From positions 186,001 through 250,000 of the forward strand of contig OX597826.1 of assembly GCA_951406725.2 (NCBI GenBank): a stretch of DNA of 64,000 bases. Reading direction: 5' to 3'. The position numbers and the translations under genes were made by a program. Positions 16,762 to 61,394 of the stretch are shown here, in pieces. Numbering within the stretch: position 1 is the stretch's first letter; each line of letters starts with the position of its first letter. This DNA comes from Octopus vulgaris. Taxonomy: Eukaryota. The notes under the pieces are model-generated. The model ran no database searches. It was given only the letters and a program-made list of their open reading frames with translations, and had not been told where the DNA came from.

Positions 16762-16814
<53 letters not shown>

Positions 16815-16825
16815 TTTATAGAAGG

Positions 16826-16876
16826 AGCTTCTACAGGACTAGAACTGTTTCATTCAAAAGAAATCATCAGGAAGCT
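16826..16876 (-). ncRNA. Minimal type I hammerhead ribozyme
   Basis: agcttc CTGATGA tttcttttgaat GAAACAG ttctagtc CTGTA gaagct. Confidence 0.8.
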
Positions 16877-16922
16877 CCTGATGATTTCTTTTGAATGAAA
16901 CAGTTCTAGTCCTGTAGAAGCT
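16873..16922 (+). ncRNA. Minimal type I hammerhead ribozyme (1-nt bulge in stem I)
   Basis: agctc CTGATGA tttcttttgaat GAAACAG...CTGTA gaagct; predicted cleavage after 16916. Confidence 0.75.
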
Positions 16923-17004
16923 CCTTCTATAAAATAAATTAATTTACTCTGCTATGTATTGAGTACCTTATTTACTGTGGTTAACCCCGACTCAACCCGG
17001 GACC

Positions 17005-17044
<40 letters not shown>

Positions 17045-24006: not shown

Positions 24007-25944
24007 TGTTTCTTTATTAGCCACACAGGGCTGCACACAGACAGGACAAATTACAAGGTAGAGTTTTTCTTTTGGGGGTAAAAAAAAGGGGGGTTGGTTT
24101 TCGATCAAAAGGGATCGTAAAAGGAAAGAAAGAGGACAAAAAAGGGGGGATAAAATTTTTAAAAAATAAAAGGGGGGAGGAAACGAAAAAAATTGATCAA
24201 TAGGGATCGTTATCACAGAAATGTCAATATGAAGTGTAAAGGGGAGGACAGGTGAGGTTTACCCGTGGAAAGAAAAGTCTACGGAAAAGACCACGGTAAC
24301 CTCGGTCAATGAAGTCACATGTTATATTTCTTTTTTTTTCTTTTTGCAAATAAGCAACTCTCTGTATTAATTTTTACGGTTCATATAGAATCATAGTCAA
24401 GGTGGCTTCGTCATTCATACGTGCCATCCTTGCTACATTCACCCATCTGTTTTTTAAAACATTCACTAGACAACACTTGCCTCTCTACTCTCACTTTCCT
24501 CTTCAAGTGATACTTGAAGAAGTTGATGAGAGATTGACCAGAGAGGAAAGTGTTTGTCTCTAATCCTTTCAGGCGCGTCCACCAGATACATTCTTTCGCC
24601 ATAGCCACAAGTATGATAAAAAAAGCTCTTTCTTCCCGTTTGAAGGAAGGAGGCGTGACGATATTAACGATAGACTCGGCTGATAAACCGACACGTCCCA
24701 CACGTGACAGCAGTCGTTCGACATAAGCCCACAGGTCGGAGATTGTTGGACACTGCACGATTGCGTGCAGAGCGGTTTCGTCGCTCTGCCCGCATCTCGG
24801 GCAGGTCGGCCCCGTGTTTCTCAAGCCATGCCTATAGAGCTTATCCCGAACGGGTAGCGCTTCTCGGTAGCACCGCCAGGCCAGGGATCTCTGGAAGTTG
24901 TCCATAGGTCCCGGTCCGAAAGTCGTTTCAAACAGGCGGGTCAGGTATTCCTCGTCGACGCCCAGGTTTGCCCCAAGATCGTCGTCGTACCTCACCTCCA
25001 CTAATCCCCTATAGAATGCTTTGGTTGTGTTGAAGTCACTCAAGGTCGACCCGGGACGGCAGAGTTGCTTGAGAGCAACGTGACACTCGCGGTGCCATTC
25101 GCCCTTCCTCGGCCTCCTTTTGATCCACGACTGCAGTTCGATCATGGAGACGAGCTGCGGGAACGCGTGCCTCACAAACGGCGACCACACCTGTTCACCG
25201 TCGTCGACATAGAGCCGGAGATGTCGCAGTCTCAGCGCATGTCTGCGCATCATCAACCATGGCATACCCAGCCATCCTTTTAACGGGTGTTGACAGCAAA
25301 TGGATCGCCTGACCATCGGGACGCATCCTTTCCACAAGAAGCGGAAGAGAATGCGTTCTAGTTTGGTGATGGTAGAGTCGGGACAAGGTACGACGGTCAG
25401 GCGGTAGTAGATTATGGACGCGATGTACGTGTTCGCCACCTCCGCCCGACCTTTTAGGGACAGTTTCCTCTCGGCCCATTGCTGGGCGAGAGTGACCACC
25501 CTACTCGTTATCTCGTTCCAGTTCTTCTCCATTTGGAGGTCTGGACCGAACCAGACCCCGAGCAACTCAACCGGGCCGTCCGTTCAGCGTCCCACGACGG
25601 AGGTACTGGTGGACGGCATGGGCTTGCTTCTCCAGGTGCCGAGCCGCAAGCCCACTGACTTTTCCCGGTTGATTTTTGCTCCTGTCACCGCTCCGTAGTC
25701 TTTCAGTGTCTCGCCGACCAGCTCGATGTGCTCGTGGCTTGACACTATGACGGTGACGTCGTCCGCGTATGCAGACACGCTCGTCCCGCATCCAATTCTC
25801 GCGGGATGCCCCTCAGAGTCGCCAGCTTCCGCAGTAGTGGCTCAAGAGTCAATACGTATAGAAGCGCCGAGAGGGGGCATCCCTGACGGACCGAACGTGC
25901 AATATCGAAAGGTCTCGATAGATGTCCATTTACGCAAATTACCG
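24007..25944 (-). mobile_element. 5'-truncated Tx1/L1-clade LINE in (GATA)n
   Basis: VRQGCPLSALLY, SAYADD, zf-RVT CPRCGQSDETALHAIVQC; AATAAA followed directly by (TATC)n. Confidence 0.92.
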
Positions 25945-25981
25945 AGACAGACAGACAGATAGATAGATAAACAGACAAATG

Positions 25982-26040
<59 letters not shown>

Positions 26041-26076
26041 GGATAGATGGATAGATAGATAGACAGACAGACAGAC

Positions 26077-26183
<107 letters not shown>

Positions 26184-26284
26184 TAGATAGATAGATAGAT
26201 AAATAGATAGACAGATAGATAGATAGATAGATAGATACATACATACATACATACATACATACATACATACATACATAGACAGAC

Positions 26285-26346
<62 letters not shown>

Positions 26347-26664
26347 TAGATAGACAGACAGACAGACAGATAGATAACTTTTTATTGTGGCCACACAGGG
26401 CTAAACACAGAATAAAAATGGACGAAATACAATGTAGAAATTTTTCTTTTCGAGGTGGGATGAGTAGGGCACAAAAAAAAAACGTTTGATCAATAGGGAA
26501 CTGTGGGTTGTGTGGTGCATAAAAAAGCAATATATATATATATAAAGTTCACAGTTTAGGTGTAGCCTTGGAAAGAAAAACCTGCAAAAAAGACCAAGGT
26601 CACCTCAGACAGTTCGAAAATGAACACATGAGTAAGTCGCCTTACTGCTCGTTTTCTCTTTTGG

Positions 26665-29600
26665 TTACAGATTTATGCTTAAAATAGTGTCGTTTTTCAT
26701 ACTGACCATTTTTGCCACTTTTACCCACTTTTTATTAAAACATTCGTTCGATAAAGCCTTCCTCTCTATTCTCATCCTCCTTTTCAAGTGGTACTTGAAA
26801 AAGTTGACGAGAGACTGACCAGAGAGGAAGGTGTTTGTTTGCAGTCCTTTCAAACGCGTCCACCACACACATTCTTTCGCCATAGCCATCAGCGTAACGA
26901 AAACCGTTTTCCCTTCCCGTTTAAAGGAAGGTGGTGGAACAATATACACGATAGACTCGGCCGATAGGCGGGCCCGACCTACACGTGACAACAGCAGTTC
27001 GACGAAGGTCCACAGCTCTGAAATATCTGGACACTGCACGAGTGCGTGCAGAACGGTTTCGTCGCTCTGACCGCATCTCGGGCAGGTCGGTCCGTTGATG
27101 GTTTTCGAACCGTGCCTGTAGCTCTTCTCTCGAACAGGTAGTGCGTCTCGATAGCACTGCCAAGCCAGGGATTTCTGGAAGTTATCCATAGGCCCCGGCC
27201 CGAACGTCGTCCTGAACAGGCGGGTTAGGAATTTCTCGTCGACGCCCAGGTTTGCCCCGAGTGTGTCGTCGGACCTCCCCTCCACTAGTCCTCTATAGAA
27301 CGCTTTAGTCGTTTGTAAGTTGCACAAGTTGACCCCGGTCGGCAGAGCTGCTGTAGAGCTTGGCGACACTCTCGGTGCCAATCGCCCAGTTTCGGTCTCT
27401 TCTTGATCCACGTTTGCAGTTCGGTCAGTGAGACGAGCTGCGGGAAGGCGCGCCTCACAAACGGCGCCCACACCTGTTCACCGTCGTCGATGAAGTTCCA
27501 GAGATGTCGCAGTCTCAGCGCATGCCTGCGCATCATCAACCACGGCATGCCCAGTCCTCCATTCAACGGAAATTGACAGCAAATGGACTTCCTCACCATC
27601 GGAACGCCACCCTTCCACAGGAAGCGGAAGAGTATGCGTTCCAGTTTGGTGATGGTGGTGTCGGGACAAGGTACGACGGTCAGGCGGTAATCGATGACGG
27701 ATGCGATGTACGCGTTCGCCACCTCCGCCCGGCCTTTTAGAGACAGCTTTCTCTCGGCCCATGTTTGGCTGAGAGCGACCACTCTACTCGTGATCTCGTC
27801 CCAGTTCTTATCCATTTGGAGGTCCGGACTGAACCAGACCCCGAGCAATTTAACCGGTCCGTCCGTCCAACGTCCCACTACTGAGCCGCAGTCGGACGGC
27901 ATGGGCTTGCTTCTCCAGGTGCCGAGTAGCAAACCCACTGACTTTTCCGGGTTAATGTTCGCTCCCGTCACCGTTTCGTATTTTCTTAGCGTCTCGCCTA
28001 TCATCTGGATGTGTTTGTCGCTCGACACTATGACGGTGACATCGTCCGCATATGCCGACACGCTCGTCCCGCAACCCAGTTCCCGTGGGATGCCCCTCAG
28101 TGTCGCCAGCTTCCGCAGTAGCGGCTCGGGAGTCAATACATACAGAAGCGCCGACAGGGGACACCCCTGACTGACCGAACGCCAAATACCGATGGTCGAC
28201 CCTATCGAAGGCTTTAGACTGATCCAAATTGATTAGCGTCCCACCCTTGCCAGGATCCTTAACTACCCTGTCCACAATGTAGCGCATCAGATGGAGGTTG
28301 TCATGTATGGTTCTGCCCGGCACGGCGCATGTTTGTGCCCTGTCGACCAATTTACTAATGACAAGCGCCAACCTCTCGGCTATTACTTTGGCCAAAATTT
28401 TCAAATCTGCGTTGAGCAGAGTGATGGGCCTGAAATTATCTATAAAATTCCCCTTGTTTGGGTCTTTCTTCAGCAACGTCACTGCACCTCGGCTCACGAA
28501 ACCGGGGATTCTCCCGTTTTGTTGCCAGTTGCAGTAGACTGATGCCAAGAGGTCGCCAAACAAGTCTGGCATTTGACAATACAGCTCGTAGGGTAAACCA
28601 TCCAATCCAGGCGACTTATCCCTCGCGCATCCCGCCATCGCATCCCGCACGTCAGCGGCTGTGATGGGACTTTCACAACACTCCGCTTCTCTTGCCGAGA
28701 GCCGCGGCAGGTCGGTTAGGTAGGCACTGAAATCCATCCCGCGTTCCGACCCACCACTCGCACCAAACAGTCGAGCAAAGTGCTGTTGAAAGGCCTCACA
28801 CATCCTTTCGGGTTCGAGTAAACTGCATCCTTGTTGATCTATTAGAGACCGAATGGTGGCTCTGTTGCCACGCTGCGCCTCCGCTACCCGGGCCTCTCGC
28901 GCAGCTTCGATCCCTTCGTTCCTTAAGGCACGCATTTTAGCTCTGACGACGCAACCTTCGTGCTTGGCGTTGAGGTGTTGTTCGAGGGCCATCCTCGCAG
29001 CCAGCACGTTGGTTGCGCTGCCAGTGGTAAGTGCCTCTTCTAGTTTCTTAACCAGGTCTCCCTCTACTCTATTTCGATCTATCGCTAATTCCTTGCTAAA
29101 CCTAATTGATTCCGATTTTATTGCCATTTTCAGGGCGAACCACCAACGGTTGTTAACGACGGCTCCCGTCAGCGCCCTCTTAATTAACTCGCTAATCTGG
29201 TTCCTGTAAACCTGTCGCGCTAAGAGTGACGTGTTCAGTTTCCAGTAACCGGGACCCTGTCTATGTGTCTTATCTAAGTCGAGCGTACACGTCACAAATT
29301 TGTGATCTGTGTAGCTGACTATTTTAAATTGTGGACATCCTACACTATCCCTATCCGCTGTCCTGCATAGAATTCTATCTAGAAAAGATCTCGACGATCC
29401 GATGCGGTTTGTCCAAGTCCACGTTGGCACGTTCGGATGGTCGAGTCGGAACCTGTCAGACAAATGGAAACGTCTGAGTAGGTCTTTGAGGCACTTACAC
29501 CCCCTTCTATTCCTATCCATTCCCACATAATCTAGATGCGTGTCCAAGGTAGCGTTCCAACCCCCTACTAACAGTAAAGGTCTAGACGTACCCAGGAAAA

Positions 29601-29981
29601 CCTCTAGACGTCTGAAGAAATCCGCCCGACCTGTTAAGGACGGTGCATAAACTGCCATCAGACGGAATGCACACCCATTTCTGCCATCCACGTCCAAGAC
29701 AACCAGCCTACCCTCCGGGTCTAGGAATATTGTTCTTACTTTTACATTTAGACTCTTTCGAAAAAGCACCGCGGTATCTCCACCACTCATGTTCGGCAGA
29801 CAGGAAGAAAAATAAATGTCGAATTGGCGCCAAACATGGACGCGAGGACCCGCGGCTTGCTGAGTCTGGTTTCACTGATAGCTACTATATCCACGTTCAG
29901 TGACTTGATGTCGTTTAGAAGGTAACCTTGCTTCCAAGCCGACGTCAAGCCACGCGCATTCACACAACCTAATTTAAGCAT
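26665..29981 (-). pseudogene. Tx1 ORF2 (APE endonuclease, reverse transcriptase, zinc-binding domain), frameshifted, deletion near 28180
   Basis: CVNARGL...ISET, YAP, LDRI, TDH, KSPGLDG, FRPITLLN, DQSKAFDRVDH, AYADD, CPRCGQSDETVLHALVQC across ORFs 29787-29981, 27952-29790, 27285-28136, 26665-27471. Confidence 0.93.
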
Positions 29982-30361
29982 AATTGACGCTTACGAAAAT
30001 TGTGTTTCACACACTACATTGTAAGAGACAAGAGGCAAGAGGGAAGGTCACTTACTCATTTCGAAAGTTTCATTTTTTCTTCTTCTTTTGTAGTGTCTTT
30101 GATGAGGTGTTTGTATAGTTTTTTGGAGAGGTATCGTTGAAACCCAACTACCGCATTTGTAAAAATTGTTTTCAGTGTATGGTGTTGTGTTTGTGTTATG
30201 TGTACAATTCTTATGTGTTTCGGTGGTGTGGTGCGCGGATGATTGTTTGTCTTAAAGTCATCTTCACAGATGTCCGTGTTGGATGCATTGTAATCCATTA
30301 ATTTTTTATTGTCTGTGTCTATTGCAGTTAGTTGTGTGTGTGGTTTTGCGGGTTCACTGAT

Positions 30362-31715
30362 TTATTGATTGTCTAGAGGGATGATGTCCGGAGTTAAATA
30401 TCTCCCTGATTTACTTCCTTGTTTGGTGGGCTTTTTTGATCTTTTCCTTTTACCCCCTGTGGCTATTTGCCATTCCGTCGAACTTTCGTCGTCCGACGAA
30501 TCAGAAGGGGGTAAAGGCAAAGCATTTGCGTCAATATGTATGCTTGTAGAAATTGTTGATGTTTTGTGCGGTGTTTGTGTTGTTGTGGTGTTAGGGGTAG
30601 AATTTGTCTTCTCGTCACTGTTTTCTGTCTTTTTAATTGTCGTCCTCGGTGTTGGTGTTGGTCTACCTTTTGGTTCAGTATGTTGAATTGGTTGCGACGT
30701 CAACGGTGATTGTGTTGGTACTGTTTCTTTTCTTGGTGATGTTGTTGGGGTTTGTTTGCTGGTTTGTTGCTTTTCTTGGCATTGTTCCATAATTTGATGT
30801 GTTGGTGTTGGTGTTGGCAACAAGGGTTTTTTATCTGTTTTCTGATTTGTTCTTTCTTGTTTTTTCTGTGCCAGAGCGCACTTGGCAATTAAATGTTCTG
30901 GGCTGCCACAGTTGTAGCATCTAGGCTTTTTGCCTTCTGCTACAACATATAGGCTTTGCCCATTTTCTAAATGGATCCTATCAGGTAGGTTCTCGATAGA
31001 GGACCCCTCAATCTGGATTGTCACTACTAATGTCTTACCACCCCAATTGTCGTTTTTGTACACGGCGGTTTCTAATATATTTATCTTTTTCAAATGGTAA
31101 CAGATTGCCCCTGTTATCCATTTGTTAGGTATCTCGGGGGTACATTTTTAATGCTAATTCTACTCACTCTCTGGCCTTTGTAATATGGTACCATGATGAT
31201 TTCATCATTTTGCAAAGACTCCGTAGAGTGAGCTTTTGCCACTTCCTGGTTAGGGAAGCGGACCACCACTGTATTAAACTGGGGACCCCAGTTTATATAT
31301 TCTTTTTTTTTTCATTATGCTTTTTAAACACTTTTCTATGTCCGTTTTTGTAATCTGTTCATTTTGTTTTTTGTTTTTTCTTATAATTTTATATATAATT
31401 GTCTTATTTTCTATTTGTTCCTTTATGTGTTGAGGTGTATGCAGCACTAAATCCTGCCCTTGGGTTGTAAAGAGTGCTCTCGTTTCTATTAACTCTTCAT
31501 TCGTAAATTTTACTATTTCTTTTTTCTGACGCAGAGTGTCAGCGAAATTTACTGGTGTTGTTGATTCTTTTATATTAACATCTTCACTATTAGATAGTAA
31601 GATATTTATTTCATTTTTATTGTTGTTCTTCTTCTTGTTGTTGTTTTTGTTAATAGTATTCGCGTGAGTTTCATTTTTATCATTTATGTTGGTAGTGGTA
31701 GCAGTAGTAGTCTAG

Positions 31716-49732: not shown

Positions 49733-50744
49733 TGAATATATATATATATATGTGTGTGTGTGTGTTAGGAGGCGCAATGGCCCAGTAGTTAGGATCGTAG
49801 GATCGCGGTTTCGATTCCCAGACCGGGCATTGTGAGTGTTTATTGAGCAAAAACACCTCAAGCTCTAGGAGGCTCCGGCAGGGGCTGGTGGTGAACCCTG
49901 CTGTACTCTTTCGCCACAACTTTCTCGCACTCTTTCTTCCTCTTTCTGTTGTACCTGAACTTCAGAGGACCAGCCTTGTCACACTCTGTGTCACGCTGAA
50001 TTTCCCCGAGAACTACGTTAAGGGTACACGTGTCTGTGAAATGCTCGGCCACTTGCACGTTAATAAATGAGTTGCAACATCACTGGTGCCAAGTTGTATC
50101 TGCCTTTTCCTTTTCCTTGGATAACATTGGTAGCATGGAGAGGGGAGGCCGGTATGTATGGGCGACTGCTGGTCTTCCATAAACAACTTTGCCCAGACTT
50201 GTGCTTCCGAGGGTAACTTTCTAGGTGCAATCCCATGGTCATTCAAGACCGAAGCGGGGTCACATATATAATTATAATGTATATAATTATATATGTATAA
50301 TTATATATGTATATATATAATATATATATGTATATATACACAATTATAATATAATTATATATGTATATAATTATATATGTATATATACTTATATAATTAT
50401 ATATGTATATATAATTATATATGCATATATAATTATATATGTATATATACACAATTAATTATATATAATTATATATGTATATATAATTATATATGTATAT
50501 AATTATATATGTATATATAATTATATATGTATATATACACAATTAGATTTTGGAAAATAAAACGAATGGCTTACATCTGGCAGTTTACTGGTAAAGCACT
50601 GTCACTTTCACAGTGATCGTTATGTATATGGCAAAGGAAGGACGAAAGATGGAATGTACGAGAATTTATTAATCATGATAATTGTTATGACACATCTAAC
50701 ATCGATCCCTCATGGGTGGGATACTCAAAAACTGGTTTAGGAGC

Positions 50745-50839
<95 letters not shown>

Positions 50840-50926
50840 CAGCAACGGAATGAATGAGACCTCGATATTATGTAAAATAGAGGAATTTATCTATAAGTAT
50901 AATATATAACAGTTAGTTGGCTGTCA

Positions 50927-50989
50927 TAATAAAACTCAGAGTTTCGGATACGGGGTCTGAAGTCTGCTCCGGCATCTCATCAGTTATTA
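50927..50989 (-). ncRNA. Type I hammerhead ribozyme motif (GUU site)
   Basis: taataa CTGATGA gatgccgg...cccgtatcc GAAAC tctga GTT ttatta. Confidence 0.7.
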
Positions 50990-51009
50990 AGACAAAACGT
51001 TTTCATTCG

Positions 51010-51400
51010 CAGTTCCTTCCTCAAAATTTGTAGGCAGGAGCTCCAGAAGACAGAAGTCATATCAGTTCGTTAATTCTTCGGTGACGTTTCTCCAAGATCA
51101 GCTCATGGATTTTCATATTTTCAATTATTCGGTAGGTCGATGGATGTCCTGAACAAGGTTGGACTTCAAGCGACAAGTGACCATTCCTAAAGCGTGGAAA
51201 TCACTCGTAAACTTGTGTTTTGCTCCTGACAAGTTCCTTGTAAGCTGTTTGAAGCGAAGTATGACAACGGTTTCAGCCGCCATTCGCCCCAGCAGAAAAC
51301 AGGATTTTACAGAAGCATGCTATTCCTTCGTTTCAGCTGTCGCAAAAGTAGACGAACAGGGGAGAAGCATTGCAAAACAAAGACGCAGCCCATGGAAGTA
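51010..51400 (-). mobile_element. Decayed mariner transposase N-terminal fragment (copy at about 60120-60510)
   Basis: HASVKSCFLLGRMAAETV resembles the mariner N-terminal HTH region. Confidence 0.55.
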
Positions 51401-52201
51401 CAAAATCACCCGACGACCTACCCGGCCGATCTTACCAAGTCGTGTTGCTCTGCTTCACTTTGTTCTATAATCCTATTGAGAAACATCAGAAAAGAATACT
51501 ATAATGAGATTAACTTTTATTATGTACTTATAATATTCCGCCGAGGTCGACGTTGCATTTCATTCTTTCGGGGTCGATAAAATAAGTACCAGGTGATTAC
51601 TGGGATTGATGCTATCGGTATATCGCTTTCCCTGATATTGCTGGCCTTGTGCCAAAATTTGAAGCCATTATATACATATAATATGTAAAGCGTCGGTCTT
51701 GAATGTGTACTTGTTACGTGAAGAGCTGTGTAATACTTGGCGCCTAGTGACAATGAGGGAGATATTGCGTCCAAGTGCTACACATAAAAAATGACAAAAG
51801 AGACTCTCTACACCCGCCTCAATATAAAGATCAAACATGAACTTTTTAATGTGAATAGGATATGAAAATCTGTACTGGTTTTTCATGTTGAAATGGCAGA
51901 TAAAAGCAGATGTTTGAGCCAGTGAAGAGTTTGTTATGAGAGTGGTTGCGCGTAGGATTGAGTATGGGGTGACGAACAAATTACCAGGTTTAATAGAATT
52001 CAGATATTTTTTCGTAAACTTGTCTAACTGCATGACGAAGAAAGGAGAATTGAATTAATGCAAACACTATCACGGCTTCTCACACTATATGCCCAAGTAC
52101 ACATCACGTGTGAAGACAGCTGGCGCGCACATCATTATCTAAAATTATTTACACATATACATATAAATAAATATAAATGCGTATGTACGTATACAATATA
52201 T

Positions 52202-52267
<66 letters not shown>

Positions 52268-52269
52268 GG

Positions 52270-52320
52270 AGCTTCTACAGGACTAGAACTGTTTCATTCA
52301 AGAGAAATCTTCAGGAAGCT
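52270..52320 (-). ncRNA. Minimal type I hammerhead ribozyme (mirror copy)
   Basis: Reverse complement of 58889-58939. Confidence 0.8.
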
Positions 52321-52944
52321 AGTTAACAAGAATTGTATTGGCATTTATACATTTAGGCAGGTTTAAAGGGGTGTTGGTGGGGGACTTTTGGGGGTAGGCA
52401 TAGCGCAAAATATCATACTTGGGGGAGTGGTCAAGGAGTCAGTGTTAAATTAGATAGAAGAATAAATAAAAAAAAAAAAAAAAATAAAAAAAAAAAAAAA
52501 AAAAAAATATATATATATAAAGAAAGGGGGAATAGAGTTTTAGGTAAATAAGGAGATTCTCACTTATACCTATGCACATATGTATACATATATACACACG
52601 CATACAAACATATATACATATACATACACACATACATACACACACATATATATATATACATATATATACACTTACACATACATATACATATCTACACATA
52701 CACATATATGTATACATACACACACTCACATGCATACACGTATACACACATGTATATATACACACACGACCACACATACATATACACACAGAAAAATATA
52801 TATACACATACACACACATACTCACATACACGCATACACACACAAATCCACACACACGCACACACAGCACACTAGTCCCTATATACACATATATACACAT
52901 ACACACATATATACACACACATACATATACATACATATATATAT

Positions 52945-53409
52945 CTGAAGCAACACGTATTTGTTCGTCTCCCTGTGGCCATTAGGCACAACTTCATAAG
53001 CCAGCCCCATACTCAATTCGTCCTGTCGAAAGACCCTTGTCCTACGTCCTGGTTTTGTTTTGTTGTTTATTTTTTATTTTTTATTTTTACCGTTATTGTT
53101 TTTACGTTTTTGTATTCTTATTGTTGTCACGTATTCTGTATTTTTGTTCGTGTACTTCGTTCGTTTTCCGTCCTCGTGTTGTATACATTCGAGGCTTTCT
53201 TCCAGGGGATCTGATGTACTTGGCTTAGATTTCCCTTGGCGGGCTGCCCATATCGGAGCAATCTCAAGATTAATCAGCCGAGGTTGCTAAGATGATCTGG
53301 TTCTTGACTGATGACTGAGGGCTTCGAATGTCCCGTCCTGTGGTTCTTGTGTCGTCTCTGTGGCGTTTCATGTTCTTGTCCATGTCTGTAATTATTTTTA
53401 CTGTTTACC
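52945..53409. mobile_element. Unclassified 465-bp insertion in a (TA)n tract of the left arm
   Basis: Absent from the mirrored arm (uninterrupted (TA)n at about 58248-58272). Confidence 0.75.
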
Positions 53410-54002
53410 TATATATATATATATATATATATACATATGTGTACCTATGCATACCTACACATACACACATATATATATATACACATACAAATACAGACCC
53501 ATTCCCTAATTTTAATTTTATTATCTTCGTTTATTACTTTTGTTATCTTTGGCCGCTTGGTCACAAACATCTTGGCTATGACAGCCAGTCCATTTATCTG
53601 TCTACTGGAAAACAAGCACTCATTCACTCACGCACACTCTTTAGCACGTACACTCACTCATTCGTACACTCATACACATACACGCACGCACGCGTTATAT
53701 TCATACATACATACATCTACATACATTCACGTATATACACATACGTACGCGTACCTACAGATTCATGTCTACACTCTTAGAAGGCTAGTCTATACATATA
53801 CACCAATAAATATAAATACACACACATACACGTACACCTACATACAAATACATACATGTATATATATATATACATATATGTTAATAAAATATATGCATAT
53901 ATATAAACATATATGTACGTACCTACCTCTACATGTACATATACACGCATATATGTGTACAGGACACCAAAAAGACGTCGAACACATAGAGAGACGAAAA
54001 AC

Positions 54003-54045
<43 letters not shown>

Positions 54046-54263
54046 CATATATATACACACATATACATACACATACATACACACACATATATACACATAT
54101 ACACACATATACACATATATACACACATACACATACATACATATACACACATACACATACATACGTATACATACATACATACATCCATACATCCATACAT
54201 ACATACATTTATACACATACACACACCCACATACATACATATATATACGCGCATATATATATC

Positions 54264-54295
<32 letters not shown>

Positions 54296-54683
54296 CATAT
54301 ATACATATATATTCATACACACACATACATATACATACATACATATACAAATATACGCACACACATACATACATACTCATATACTCATACACGCACATAC
54401 ACATGTACATGCGTACCCATACACACACACACACACGCGGGCATCCATATATACACATAAGTACACCCATGCGTAAAAGTATACATATATCTATGCTTAC
54501 ACATACACACACACACACGCGCCTCCTTATATTCATACTTACATGCATACTCAAAAAATAAGTAAATAGTAAAATATATATACGCGCAGTTATTCATACA
54601 TGCATACTCAAAAAATAAATAATAAATATTAAGTATATGTACGTGCAGTTACCTATTATATAGACGGATACATACATATAAAC

Positions 54684-54750
<67 letters not shown>

Positions 54751-54805
54751 CACATATATATACACATACACACATACATACATATATATATACACACACA
54801 CACAT

Positions 54806-54846
<41 letters not shown>

Positions 54847-55036
54847 CTTACACATGTACATATAAATACACACATAGATAACTCTACGTACCTACATATA
54901 CATAAACACACGAGCGTACGCGTATATGTACATATACACATACACATACACACGCATATATATATATACATACATACATACACACATGTATACACACACA
55001 CACACATACACATATATATACATACACATACATATA

Positions 55037-55123
<87 letters not shown>

Positions 55124-55263
55124 ACACATATATACATGTGTGCAAACATACATACATTCTCATACAAGCACACGCACTTACATTTACATATATACACACA
55201 CTTACACACATATATACATACACATGTACATACATACATACATACATACGTATATGCATACAT

Positions 55264-55318
<55 letters not shown>

Positions 55319-55401
55319 CATACATACACAAACACATACCCATACATATATATACACACATATATATACACATGCACATACTTATATCTCTACATACTCG
55401 C

Positions 55402-55452
<51 letters not shown>

Positions 55453-55733
55453 CACACACATACATATACCTATATACATGCATATATACACATACATATA
55501 TATACACATCTACAATTTGTATCTACACTCACATACCTGCACATACACATAACTCTACATACCTACATATACATATACATCGACATACTCGCGTACACTC
55601 ATATATATACACATATATACATATACACACACACATACATATACATATACATATACATATATATAAACATATACACACATAATACACATATACACACACA
55701 TACATATATGTATATATATATATACATATATAC

Positions 55734-55804
<71 letters not shown>

Positions 55805-56021
55805 CATACATACATACACATATACATACATGTACATATACACATACACACACATATATATACACACACATACATGGTGAAATTGATTAATAACTAATTA
55901 ACTTTACCCTCAATTGTTGATAATGTATGTGTTTGTATATATATGTGTGTGTATGTGTATATGTACATGTATGTATATGTGTATGTATGTATGTATGTAT
56001 ATATATATATATATGTATGTA

Positions 56022-56058
<37 letters not shown>

Positions 56059-56067
56059 GTATATATG

Positions 56068-56098
<31 letters not shown>

Positions 56099-56385
56099 AT
56101 ATGTGTATTATGTGTGTATATGTTTATATATATGTATATGTATATGTATATGTATGTGTGTGTGTATATGTATATATGTGTATATATATGAGTGTACGCG
56201 AGTATGTCGATGTATATGTATATGTAGGTATGTAGAGTTATGTGTATGTATATGTATATGTATATGTATATGTAGGTATGTAGAGTTATGTGTATGTGCA
56301 GGTATGTGAGTGTAGATACAAATTGTAGATGTGTATATATATGTATGTGTATATATGCATGTATATAGGTATATGTATGTGTGTG

Positions 56386-56444
<59 letters not shown>

Positions 56445-56533
56445 GCGAGTATGTAGAGATATAAGTATGTGCATGTGTATATATATGTGTGTATATATAT
56501 GTATGGGTATGTGTTTGTGTATGTATGTATGTA

Positions 56534-56570
<37 letters not shown>

Positions 56571-56744
56571 ATGTATGCATATACGTATGTATGTATGTAT
56601 GTACATGTGTATGTATATATGTGTGTAAGTGTGTGTATATATGTAAATGTAAGTGTGTGTGCTTGTATGAGAATGTATGTATGTTTGCACACATGTATAT
56701 ATGTGTGTGTATGTGTATGTGTATATATATATATGTGTATATAT

Positions 56745-56778
<34 letters not shown>

Positions 56779-56967
56779 ATGTGTATGTATATATATGTGT
56801 ATGTGTGTGTGTGTATATACATGTGTGTATGTGTATGTATGTATGTATGTATATATATGCGTGTGTATGTGTATGTGTATATGTACATATACGCGTACGC
56901 TCGTGTGCTTATGTATATGTAGGTACGTAGAGTTATCTATGTGTGTATTTATATGTACATGTGTAAG

Positions 56968-57006
<39 letters not shown>

Positions 57007-57071
57007 ATGTGTGTGTGTGTATATATATATGTATGTATGTGTGTATGTGTATATATATGTGTATATATATG

Positions 57072-57127
<56 letters not shown>

Positions 57128-57523
57128 GTGTGTAAGTTTATATGTATGTATCCGTCTATATAATAGGTAACTGCACGTACATATACTTAATATTTATTAT
57201 TTATTTTTTGAGTATGCATGTATGAATAACTGCGCGTATATATATTTTACTATTTACTTATTTTTTGAGTATGCATGTAAGTATGAATATAAGGAGGCGC
57301 GTGTGTGTGTGTGTATGTGTAAGCATAGATATATGTATACTTTTACGCATGGGTGTACTTATGTGTATATATGGATGCGCGCGTGTGTGTGTGTGTGTAT
57401 GGGTACGCATGTACATGTGTATGTGCGTGTATGAGTATATGAGTATGTATGTATGTGTGTGCGTATATTTGTATATGTATGTATGTATATGTATGTGTGT
57501 GTATGAATATATATGTATATATG

Positions 57524-57555
<32 letters not shown>

Positions 57556-57774
57556 GATATATATATGCGCGTATATATATGTATGTATGTGGGTGTGTGT
57601 ATGTGTATAAATGTGTGTATGTATGGATGTATGGATGTATGTATGTATACGTATGTATGTGTATGTGTGTATATGTATGTATGTGTATGTGTGTATATAT
57701 GTGTATATGTGTGTATATGTGTATATATGTGTGTGTATGTATGTGTATGTATATATATGTGTATATATATGTGA

Positions 57775-57810
<36 letters not shown>

Positions 57811-58248
57811 GTATATATATATACATGTATGTATTTGTATGTAGGTGTACGTGTATGTGTGTGTATTTATATTTATTGGTGTATATGTATAGACTAGCCT
57901 TCTAAGAGTGTAGACATGAATCTGTAGGTACGCGTACGTATGTGTATATACGTGAATGTATGTAGATGTATGTATGTATGAATATAACGCGTGCGTGCGT
58001 GTATGTGTATGAGTGTACGAATGAGTGAGTGTACGTGATAAAAAGTGTGCGTGAGTGAATGAGTGCTTGTTTTCCAGTAGACAGATAAATGGACTGGCTG
58101 TCATAGCCAAGATGTTTGTGACCAAGCGGCCAAAGATAACAAAAGTAATAAACGAAGATAATAAAATTAAAATTAGGGAATGGGTCTGTATTTGTATGTG
58201 TATATATATATATGTGTGTATGTGTAGGTATGCATAGGTACACATATG

Positions 58249-58281
<33 letters not shown>

Positions 58282-58888
58282 ATGTATGTGTGTGTATATA
58301 TGTGTGTATGTGTATATATGTGTATATAGGGACTAGTGTGCTGTGTGTGCATGTGTGTGTGTGGATTTGTGTGTGTATGCGTGTATGTGAGTATGTGTGT
58401 GTATGTGTATATATATTTTTCTGTGTGTATATGTATGTGTGGTCGTGTGTGTATATATACATGTGTGTATACGTGTATGCATGTGAGTGTGTGTATGTAT
58501 ACATATATGTGTATGTGTAGATATGTATATGTATGTGTAAGTGTATATATATGTATATATATATGTGTGTGTATGTATGTGTGTATGTATATGTATATAT
58601 GTTTGTATGCGTGTGTATATATGTATACATATGTGCATAGGTATAAGTGAGAATCTCCTTATTTACCTAAAACTCTATTCCCCCTTTTTTATATATATAT
58701 ATATTTTTTTATTTTTTTTATTTATTTTTTTTTATTTTTTATTTATTCTTCTATCTAATTTAACACTGACTCCTTGACCACTCCCCCAAGTATGATATTT
58801 TGCGCTATGCCTACCCCCAAAATGTCCCCCACCAACACCCCTTTAAACCTGCCTAAATGTATAAATGCCAATACAATTCTTGTTAACT

Positions 58889-58939
58889 AGCTTCCTGAAG
58901 ATTTCTCTTGAATGAAACAGTTCTAGTCCTGTAGAAGCT
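58889..58939 (+). ncRNA. Minimal type I hammerhead ribozyme, intact core
   Basis: agcttc CTGAAGA tttctcttgaat GAAACAG ttctagtc CTGTA gaagct; predicted cleavage after 58933. Confidence 0.82.
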
Positions 58940-59022
58940 CCTTCTATATAATAAATTAATTTTACTCTGCAATGTATTGAGTACCTTATTTACTGTGGTT
59001 AACCCCGAATCAACCCGGGACC

Positions 59023-59118
<96 letters not shown>

Positions 59119-59121
<3 letters not shown>

Positions 59122-59851
59122 GGAGGCGCAATGGCCCAGTAGTTAGGATCGTAGGATCGCGGTTTCGATTCCCAGACCGGGCATTGTGAGTGTTTATTGA
59201 GCAAAAACACCTCAAGCTCTAGGAGGCTCCGGCAGGGGCTGGTGGTGAACCCTGCTGTACTCTTTCGCCACAACTTTCTCGCACTCTTTCTTCCTCTTTC
59301 TGTTGTACCTGAACTTCAGAGGACCAGCCTTGTCACACTCTGTGTCACGCTGAATTTCCCCGAGAACTACGTTAAGGGTACACGTGTCTGTGAAATGCTC
59401 GGCCACTTGCACGTTAATAAATGAGTTGCAACATCACTGGTGCCAAGTTGTATCTGCCTTTTCCTTTTCCTTGGATAACATTGGTAGCATGGAGAGGGGA
59501 GGCCGGTATGTATGGGCGACTGCTGGTCTTCCATAAACAACTTTGCCCAGACTTGTGCTTCCGAGGGTAACTTTCTAGGTGCAATCCCATGGTCATTCAA
59601 GACCGAAGGGGGGTCACACATATATAATTATATATGTATATATACACAATTAGATTTTGGAAAATAAAACGAATGGCTTACATCTGGCAGTTTACTGGTA
59701 AAGCACTGTCACTTTCACAGTGATCGTTATGTATATGGCAAAGGAAGGACGAAAGATGGAATGTACGAGAATTTTTTAATCATGATAATTGTTTTGACAC
59801 ATCTAACGTCGATCCCTCATGGGTGGGATACTCAAAAACTGGTTTAGGAGC

Positions 59852-59949
<98 letters not shown>

Positions 59950-61311
59950 CAGCAACGGAATGAATGAGACCTCGATATTATGTAAAATAGAGGAATTTAT
60001 CTATAAGTATAATATATAACAGTTAGTTGGCTGTCATAATAAAACTCAGAGTTTCGGATACGGGGTCTGAAGTCTGCTCCAGCATCTCATCAGTTATTAA
60101 GACAAAACGTTTTCATTCGCAGTTCCTTCCTCAAAATTTGTAGGCAGGAGCTCCAGAAGACAGAAGTCATATCAGTTCGTTAATTCTTCGGTGACGTTTC
60201 TCCAAGATCAGCTCATGGATTTTCATATTTTCAATTATTCGGTAGGTCGATGGATGTCCTGAACAAGGTTGGACTTCAAGCGACAAGTGACCATTCCTAA
60301 AGCGTGGAAATCACTCGTAAACTTGTGTTTTGCTCCTGACAAGTTCCTTGTAAGCTGTTTGAAGCGAAGTATGACAACGGTTTCAGCCGCCATTCGCCCC
60401 AGCAGAAAACAGGATTTTACAGAAGCATGCTATTCCTTCGTTTCAGCTGTCGCAAAAGTAGACGAACAGGGGAGAAGCATTGCAAAACAAAGACGCAGCC
60501 CATGGAAGTACAAAATCACCCGACGACCTACCCGGCCGATCTTACCAAGTCGTGTTGCTCTGCTTCACTTTGTTCTATAATCCTATTGAGAAACATCAGA
60601 AAAGAATACTATAATGAGATTAACTTTTATTATGTACTTATAATATTCCGCCGAGGTCGACGTTGCATTTCATTCTTTCGGGGTCGATAAAATAAGTACC
60701 AGGTGATTACTGGGATTGATGCTATCGGTATATCGCTTTCCCTGATATTGCTGGCCTTGTGCCAAAATTTGAAGCCATTATATACATATAATATGTAAAG
60801 CGTCGGTCTTGAATGTGTACTTGTTACGTGAAGAGCTGTGTAATACTTGGCGCCTAGTGACAATGAGGGAGATATTGCGTCCAAGTGCTACACATAAAAA
60901 ATGACAAAAGAGACTCTCTACACCCGCCTCAATATAAAGATCAAACATGAACTTTTTAATGTGAATAGGATATGAAAATCTGTACTGGTTTTTCATGTTG
61001 AAATGGCAGATAAAAGCAGATGTTTGAGCCAGTGAAGAGTTTGTTATGAGAGTGGTTGCGCGTAGGATTGAGTATGGGGTGACGAACAAATTACCAGGTT
61101 TAATAGAATTCAGATATTTTTTCGTAAACTTGTCTAACTGCATGACGAAGAAAGGAGAATTGAATTAATGCAAACACTATCACGGCTTCTCACACTATAT
61201 GCCCAAGTACACATCACGTGTGAAGACAGCTGGCGCGCACATCATTATCTAAAATTATTTACACATATACATATAAATAAATATAAATGTGTATGTACGT
61301 ATACAATATAT

Positions 61312-61315
<4 letters not shown>
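59119..61315 (+). repeat. Direct repeat A'
   Basis: Copy of 49765-52205 lacking about 240 bp of TATAAT-type minisatellite; a handful of substitutions. Confidence 0.95.
60037..60099 (-). ncRNA. Type I hammerhead ribozyme motif (duplicate of 50927-50989)
   Basis: Same motif, one substitution in stem II. Confidence 0.7.

Positions 61316-61394
<79 letters not shown>

What the first reader, a model, noticed from the sequence alone, without database searches (positions are those of the whole stretch)
52261..59025. 6.8-kb palindrome hidden in CA/TA low-complexity DNA and capped by hammerhead ribozymes
What looks like plain microsatellite is a mirrored pair of arms of about 3 kb around a 47-bp spacer (55876-55922), with an intact HHR near each outer end and the family 3' tail on the right. 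The arms differ by substitutions, repeat lengths and two left-arm-only segments (52945-53409, about 53870-54005), which argues for a real, aged structure rather than a read fold-back. It implies that a non-coding HHR element copied kilobases of simple-sequence cargo.
Basis: partly seen in the sequence, partly recalled or inferred. Interest (0 to 1): 0.75.

Follow-up and report, generated by a model that had tools for sequence, protein, structure and literature searches.

The report
Head-to-head Penelope element, microsatellite-packed tail
The 6.8-kb mirror is two broken-off tail ends of one protein-coding jumping gene whose own untranslated tail is about 3.5 kb of CA/TA repeats, most likely pasted in head to head in a single event, so it is an unusually large example of a known kind of insertion and not repeat DNA picked up by a non-coding ribozyme element.

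Summary
The palindrome, the 47-bp spacer, both hammerhead motifs, the one-sided tail and the left-arm inserts are all in the sequence. The interpretation changes. The CA/TA DNA and the spacer are the shared 3' UTR of a young, high-copy family (spacer 31-mer: 439 exact copies). Upstream of the spacer, other copies carry a reverse transcriptase + GIY-YIG ORF (713 aa intact in L109) with all Hydra-clade Penelope motifs. Head-to-head pairs with one tailed end are the family norm (48 of 60 loci), a layout known for Penelope-like elements; the scan has reported it before on other DNA of this genome. The left-arm inserts are later nested insertions of two other repeats. What is unusual: units of 4.8-7.2 kb against 1.1-3.0 kb for published Hydra families, due to a microsatellite UTR that carries the element's own (TA)n target; both arms come from one template (32 of 33 concordant); and a 2.5-kb flanking duplication ending in (TA)n at both ends, seen at none of 86 other loci, which may be a giant target-site duplication. 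No read-level check was obtained. Interest 0.35.

The parts
52261..55875 (-). Left arm: 5'-truncated copy of the element's 3' UTR, ending 3 nt past the hammerhead's 3' hairpin (tail-less, short end) in a (TA)n tract
52270..52320 (-). Minimal type I hammerhead motif; predicted cut between 52276 and 52275
   Evidence: motif as in Hydra HHR table
52945..53409 (+). Nested insertion A: 5'-truncated copy of another young (TA)n-inserting repeat with a ~780-bp tandem unit
   Evidence: 2,700 candidates, 97-99%; none of 11 other copies fetched sits in this element; junction occurs once in the genome
53870..54005 (-). Nested insertion B: terminal 136 bp of a third (TA)n-inserting repeat family
   Evidence: 1,251 candidates, 98-99%
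55876..55922 (+). 'Spacer': family UTR sequence; the right arm simply reaches 47-49 nt further 5' than the left; 1-nt microhomology at the join
   Evidence: 439 exact copies of its 31-mer; junction unique in the genome
55876..59025 (+). Right arm: 5'-truncated copy of the same 3' UTR, 67% alternating purine/pyrimidine repeat, with hammerhead and tail
58889..58939 (+). Minimal type I hammerhead motif; predicted cut after 58933
58948..59025 (+). 78-bp tail (long end); in tandem copies it is followed by the ORF, ATG 46-47 nt further on
49738..52260 (+). Left copy of the flanking duplication, running from one (TA)n tract to another (boundaries inside the tracts are approximate)
   Evidence: only two copies in the genome
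59026..61350 (+). Right copy of the flanking duplication, starting at the tail end; 5 substitutions in 1,985 unique columns against the left copy
16811..17007 (.). Miniature (about 200 bp) head-to-head insertion of the same family elsewhere in the window

Best explanation
The palindrome is two 5'-truncated copies of the microsatellite-rich 3' end of a protein-coding Hydra-type Penelope-like retrotransposon, joined head to head in a (TA)n tract, most likely in one insertion event in which the element's enzyme copied one RNA twice from two nicked DNA ends. Shown: family membership of every arm segment and of the spacer, the ORF in other copies, the one-tail rule, the common origin of both arms, the nested inserts. 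Inferred: the GIY-YIG nuclease nicks both strands in (TA)n; one 3' end primes reverse transcription at the tail end, the other about 65-75 nt upstream, just past the hammerhead; both cDNAs run about 3.1 kb into the UTR, stop 47 nt apart and are joined 5' end to 5' end by end joining; here the two nicks may have fallen in two (TA)n tracts 2.5 kb apart, duplicating the DNA between them. Afterwards two other TA-seeking repeats inserted into TA runs of the left arm, and the microsatellites slipped. The hammerhead is predicted to process tandem transcripts; it was evidently not cut in the RNA that was copied, since both arms read through the cut site.
For: Anchors collinear at about 99% in other loci. 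Copy gradient typical of 5' truncation: hammerhead 29-mer 5,825, tail 30-mer 3,724, spacer 31-mer 439 exact matches, 94 candidates for the ORF's 5' end. Intact 713-aa ORF at L109:2272-4413 with RWR, DKT, YRDD, CxCx5C, LVY...YIG, CxxC, CxH, as defined for Hydra (PMC8557442 section 11; Fig. S7 alignment); 1,116 relatives at E<=1e-20. 48 of 60 loci head-to-head; one tailed end in 32 of 32 short pairs; 17 head-to-head pairs against 1 opposite pair among the first 100 spacer matches. Short ends +3 to +13 nt, 23 of 37 at +9. Same template: loop variant concordant in 32 of 33 pairs, 32% expected; no arm from another locus closer than the partner arm in 12 of 17 long palindromes. Either arm can reach further 5' (tailed 10, tail-less 13 of 23), which simple fold-back of the tailed cDNA does not give. 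A purified Penelope-like protein nicks and extends both strands, starts at two internal RNA sites that bound the tail, uses uncut RNA and is predicted to be a dimer (PMC11167929, parts 1-2).
Against: The two-primer step is not separated from fold-back plus later central deletion: 6 of 23 long palindromes have 5' ends within 50 nt of each other and many short ones turn at the palindromic 5' strand of stem I. Arm similarity could partly be gene conversion. In the window two arms from another locus are as close as or closer than the partner (0.48% vs 0.60%). The 2.5-kb duplication has no parallel in 86 other loci (0 of 26, nine of them with a flank under 2.5 kb; 0 of 60), and L158 shows that 2.5-kb tandem duplications also arise after insertion. 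No ORF in the window. Hammerhead fold is weak. No tree was built; clade placement rests on motifs.
Confidence: 0.78

Rival explanations
1. Same element, different mechanism: one cDNA folds back and primes on itself (self-priming), copies itself to just past the hammerhead and joins the second DNA end; unequal arms come from later deletions at the unstable centre.
For: Explains common origin of the arms; 6 of 23 near-perfect centres, a 28-bp local hairpin at the centre of L084+, many short pairs turning at a 4-nt palindrome. Self-priming was proposed for head-to-head Penelope junctions (PMC3846280, passages).
Against: In 10 of 23 long palindromes the tail-less arm is over 100 nt longer, needing an extra deletion each time; the fixed short end matches a second priming site as shown in vitro (PMC11167929).
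Confidence: 0.3
2. The 2.5-kb flanking duplication is not a target-site duplication but a later unequal exchange between (TA)n tracts, or two haplotypes laid in tandem by the assembler.
For: Unique among 87 loci; post-insertion tandem duplication seen in L158; 3 of the 5 substitutions cluster in 34 bp and a 247-bp low-complexity block differs; the duplicate looks slightly younger than the arms (5/1,985 vs 6/1,004).
Against: That age difference is not significant (p 0.20); the copies abut the element exactly and both ends lie in the element's target motif, in the order a staggered cut predicts; large duplications at retrotransposon insertions are known for L1 (PMC5223499, passages).
Confidence: 0.45
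3. One reading: a non-coding hammerhead element (retrozyme-like) captured local simple-sequence DNA as cargo.
For: No ORF in the window; one UTR island is related to another dispersed repeat; copy-specific host spacers before the 3' pLTR are known in Pen1_Av (PMC3846280).
Against: The same 'cargo' and spacer occur in hundreds of copies joined to an RT-endonuclease ORF.
Confidence: 0.03
4. Assembly or read fold-back artefact.
For: Long palindromes in simple repeats are artefact-prone (general knowledge); no spanning read was seen here.
Against: Arms differ by nested insertions with unique junctions; the tailed/tail-less asymmetry recurs at dozens of loci, which read fold-back would not give.
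Confidence: 0.05

Closest known systems
Hydra clade of C-terminal EN+ Penelope-like elements, incl. Hydra-1_Obim (Craig et al. 2021, PMC8557442; sections 6, 9, 11, 12, 15, supplement parts 2 and 58 read)
   Same: Single RT + C-terminal GIY-YIG ORF with RWx, DKT, CxCx5C, CxxC, CxH and no CCHH; 3' hammerhead of the same pattern (core, U-U closing stem II, ACAG/CUGU stem III in several listed families); (TA)n target; 5' truncation, partial tandems, inverted 5'-truncated copy, tail at one end.
   Different: Units 4,782-7,172 bp (five natural copies) against 1,080-3,045 bp for the 27 listed families; 3' UTR 2.6-5.0 kb, 55-67% alternating repeat; tail 78 bp rather than 30-40; hammerhead and protein differ from Hydra-1_Obim, so a different family.
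Poseidon PAc of Anolis (Frangieh et al. 2024, PMC11167929; parts 1-2 of 4 read)
   Same: Nicks and extends both strands at AT-rich DNA; two RT start sites bound the tail; uncut RNA is the template.
   Different: Other clade; its hammerhead overlaps the ORF start, here the ORF starts 46-47 nt after the tail; kilobase palindromes not studied in the parts read.
Adineta vaga Penelope families (Arkhipova et al. 2013, PMC3846280; passages)
   Same: Head-to-head inverted pLTRs with a tail on one side; Pen1_Av has a 0.9-1.5 kb spacer between ORF and 3' pLTR.
   Different: Pen1_Av spacers are copy-specific host DNA; here one microsatellite UTR is inherited by all copies, and inverted arms are kilobases, TSDs there 8-10 bp.
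Chlamys elements lengthened by tandem repeats (PMC8557442 section 9)
   Same: Penelope-like elements of 3.3-8.2 kb, some enlarged by tandem repeats, microsatellite targets.
   Different: N-terminal endonuclease, mostly no hammerhead, algae and protists.
Large target-site duplications of L1 (PMC5223499; passages)
   Same: Retrotransposon insert flanked by a long direct duplication, explained by a distant second nick.
   Different: Cultured human cells, mainly repair-deficient; here a germline insertion with both ends in (TA)n, origin not proven.

Membership tests
Hydra-clade PLE | Single ORF, RT followed by C-terminal GIY-YIG endonuclease | tested here: met
   L109:2272-4413, 713 aa, YRDD at 347, LVY...YIG at 586. 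Met for the family; the window holds only UTR. Pfam gave no RT or GIY-YIG hit on the two L053 frames.
Hydra-clade PLE | RWK motif present, GxKF/Y not conserved, DKG changed to DKT | tested here: met
   RWR at 38, DKT at 116, no GxK[FY]
Hydra-clade PLE | CxCx5C linker; no CCHH; CxxC and CxH around the conserved E and N | tested here: met
Hydra-clade PLE | Canonical hammerhead near the 3' end | tested here: met
   Motif complete; commonest form in 64 of 157 motif matches; pattern as in File S2. No Rfam hit.
Hydra-clade PLE | Hammerhead self-cleaves | not testable with these tools
   Constrained fold -7.3 vs MFE -8.5 kcal/mol; needs an assay
Hydra-clade PLE | Insertion into (TA)n | tested here: met
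   Both ends in (TA)n at 27 of 27 long insertions shown
Hydra-clade PLE | Generally short, under 3 kb (descriptive, not diagnostic) | tested here: not met
   Units 4.8-7.2 kb vs list
Hydra-clade PLE | Phylogenetic placement of the RT inside the Hydra clade | not tested
   Only a by-eye comparison with the published alignment
EN+ PLE insertion layout | 5' truncation, partial tandems, inverted 5'-truncated copy, tail at one end | tested here: met
   description in PMC8557442 section 6
Retrozyme (non-coding HHR element; features recalled) | No protein-coding capacity; short tandem monomers each with a hammerhead | tested here: not met
   Family encodes RT-EN; unit about 5.6 kb
Foldback/MITE DNA transposon (features recalled) | Equal terminal inverted repeats of fixed extent | tested here: not met
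   Ends unequal (tail on one side), arm length varies from about 40 bp to over 5 kb

The most novel reading that the evidence does not exclude
A Penelope-like element has made microsatellite DNA its own 3' UTR and so sows new (TA)n landing sites for itself and other TA-seeking elements; it inserts by copying one RNA twice for kilobases from two nicks, and when the nicks fall in two separate (TA)n tracts it duplicates the host DNA between them, making it a source of multi-kilobase palindromes and kilobase segmental duplications in the germline.
Probability: 0.3. Interest if true: 0.6.

Novelty: new variant of a known kind. Interest (0 to 1): 0.35.

Why it matters
Kilobases of what annotation calls simple repeat are here retrotransposed element body (at least 439 copies reaching 3.1 kb into the UTR, about 1.4 Mb as a lower bound, 0.05% of the genome), so such families are probably cut short in repeat libraries. 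Long arms with independent 5' ends and shared private variants give a natural record to decide between two-primer and fold-back models for Penelope inversions, an open question named in PMC8557442 section 15. If the flanking 2.5 kb is a target-site duplication, these elements can duplicate host DNA between microsatellites. The core layout is known, which limits the surprise.

Tried and rejected
Rfam: no match in the window. Pfam on the two L053 frames: no RT or GIY-YIG hit, one sub-threshold unrelated hit. Folding the hammerhead: no better than shuffles. Search for kilobase flanking duplications at other insertions: 0 of 26 long and 0 of 60 further loci; L136 and L176 hits were dispersed repeats and the L158 duplication includes the element. 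Idea that the left arm came from a different source copy already carrying insert A: junction occurs once in the genome, rejected. Public runs: 20 of 24 listed hold over half the words of the family's 3' end, in 9 studies; no RNA holder listed. Laying contigs on 50542-50748 to see whether the differences between the flanking copies are alleles: uninformative, the stretch is a high-copy repeat. Literature: searches showed no paper on a Hydra element with a multi-kilobase microsatellite UTR; no repeat library (Repbase, Dfam) could be searched, and a 2026 octopus annotation lists 190 Penelope-like families without naming Hydra (PMC13282606, passages and supplement search), so the family may already be in a library. 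Earlier scan notes: no look-alike by sequence or by words.
Full report
Observation. The window lies in a 2.8-Gb animal assembly (octopus-like by its repeats, my inference). After masking simple repeats, three unique islands pair between the arms at 98.8-99.6%, and twelve anchors run in mirror order around 55876-55922. The left arm is 52261-55875, the right 55876-59025. A global alignment gives 3 substitutions in 712 strictly non-repeat columns, 21 indels, left-only blocks of 474 and 133 bp and a right-only 48-bp unit. A minimal hammerhead motif is present at 58889-58939 (+) and 52270-52320 (-); Rfam does not call it and it folds no better than shuffles. In addition the palindrome is flanked by direct copies of about 2.5 kb (about 49738-52260 and 59026-61350) that occur only here.

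The 'cargo' is the element. The 3' end has 1,183 candidates in the genome, and the internal islands recur at the same distances and about 99% identity in the fetched copies. The spacer's 31-mer has 439 exact matches. Following copies upstream of the spacer leads through more CA/TA DNA into a 2.1-kb ORF, intact at L109:2272-4413 (713 aa), with 1,116 relatives at E<=1e-20. Its motifs are those that define Hydra-clade Penelope-like elements (PMC8557442 section 11) and it reads alongside the published alignment, but it is not Hydra-1_Obim. Its hammerhead follows the Hydra pattern. Five natural units measure 4,782-7,172 bp; four measured 3' UTRs are 2,594-4,986 bp and 55-67% alternating purine/pyrimidine repeat (the fifth stop was not located by the script), whereas the 27 published Hydra families are 1,080-3,045 bp. 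Two subfamilies differ by about 4% in the ORF and about 8% in UTR anchors. One UTR island has 73-82% relatives in unrelated loci, suggesting the UTR grew by old nested insertion and repeat expansion (inference). Exact-match counts fall from hammerhead (5,825) and tail (3,724) to spacer (439) and ORF start (94 candidates), the gradient of 5' truncation.

The palindrome is the family's usual insertion form. Of 60 loci taken from the first listed matches on contig C1, 48 were head-to-head and 12 scored as single; 32 of 32 short pairs parsed had exactly one tailed end. Among the first 100 spacer matches 17 adjacent pairs were head-to-head and 1 opposite; these are palindromes of 5.8-8.7 kb or compound arrays, so 6.8 kb is not exceptional for this family. 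Tail-less ends stop +3 to +13 nt past the hammerhead's 3' hairpin (23 of 37 at +9; the window's is +3), tailed ends run into (TA)n in 48 of 57. This layout is described for Penelope-like elements (PMC8557442 section 6; PMC3846280 passages), and earlier notes of this scan report it for other families in this genome.

Mechanism. Both arms derive from one template: the stem II loop variant agrees in 32 of 33 pairs, 32% expected, and in 12 of 17 long palindromes no foreign arm is closer than the partner; the window is one of the five exceptions, narrowly (0.60% within, 0.48% to an arm of L058). Either arm may extend further 5' (tailed 10, tail-less 13 of 23, ten of the latter by over 100 nt), junctions have 0-3 nt of microhomology or short inserts, and 6 of 23 have 5' ends within 50 nt (L084+ read from the map). 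A purified Poseidon protein nicks and extends both strands, starts at two internal sites that bound the tail, prefers uncut RNA and is predicted to dimerise (PMC11167929 parts 1-2). I therefore favour two priming events on one RNA, joined head to head (about 0.6 for this step), over fold-back with later central deletion (about 0.3), which the near-perfect centres keep alive. Gene conversion between arms is not excluded.

Left-arm inserts. 52945-53409 is a 5'-truncated copy of another young family (2,700 candidates); none of 11 other copies fetched lies in this element and its junction is unique. 53870-54005 is the end of a third family (1,251 candidates). Both sit in TA runs. Foreign blocks over 100 bp occur in 4 of 23 long insertions, so the UTR is a landing pad for TA-seeking elements. 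The centre junction is also unique.

Flanking duplication. The right copy begins at the tail and the left copy ends at the short end, both ends in (TA)n, as two nicks 2.5 kb apart would give. The copies differ at 5 of 1,985 unique columns, not significantly less than the arms (6 of 1,004; p 0.20). Large duplications are known for L1 in cells (PMC5223499 passages). Against: none at 26 long loci (nine with a flank under 2.5 kb) or 60 others, and L158 carries a 2.5-kb tandem duplication that includes the element and so arose later. I put target-site duplication at about even odds with later exchange or haplotype duplication.

Limits. No read-level confirmation was obtained (uninformative). No tree was built, no repeat library could be searched, and ribozyme activity and expression are untested. 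Searches showed no description of a Hydra element with such a UTR; a 2026 octopus annotation counts 190 Penelope-like families and may include it.

Verdict. Real, explained as a known insertion form of a Hydra-type Penelope-like element; new in the size and make-up of the UTR, in the length over which one template is copied twice, and possibly in a kilobase target-site duplication. New variant of a known kind, interest 0.35.

Noticed in passing
L053, L105, L106 and other ORF-bearing copies: Most copies are out of frame between RT and endonuclease at one homopolymer run (14 of 16 matches, overlapping loci not de-duplicated; many 225-aa frames), while a few are in frame. Could be a defective master lineage, ribosomal frameshifting or homopolymer error.
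   Followed up: partly
window 16811-17007 and loci L131-L190: Most short palindromes of the family end at or near the 5' strand of hammerhead stem I, about 45 nt upstream of the cut site, a strong stop or turning point for reverse transcription.
   Followed up: partly
window 52945-53409; L113, L114, L116, L117: Insert A belongs to a young family with a tandem unit of about 780 bp and no long ORF evident in the part seen; candidate non-coding passenger of Penelope enzymes.
   Followed up: no
window 24400-31150 (-): Partial-tandem, frameshifted LINE with endonuclease and RT-like frames (639 aa and others); the two copies are 82% identical. Family not determined.
   Followed up: no
L158:1033-6108: A 2.5-kb tandem duplication, 98.8% identical, that includes a short palindromic insertion of the family.
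   Followed up: partly
window 50265-50512: A 247-bp AT-rich low-complexity block present in the left flanking copy only.
   Followed up: no
G000:C1:13118200-13134100 (L071-L073), L091-L092: Compound arrays of 10-16 kb made of several arms and nested insertions of the same family.
   Followed up: no
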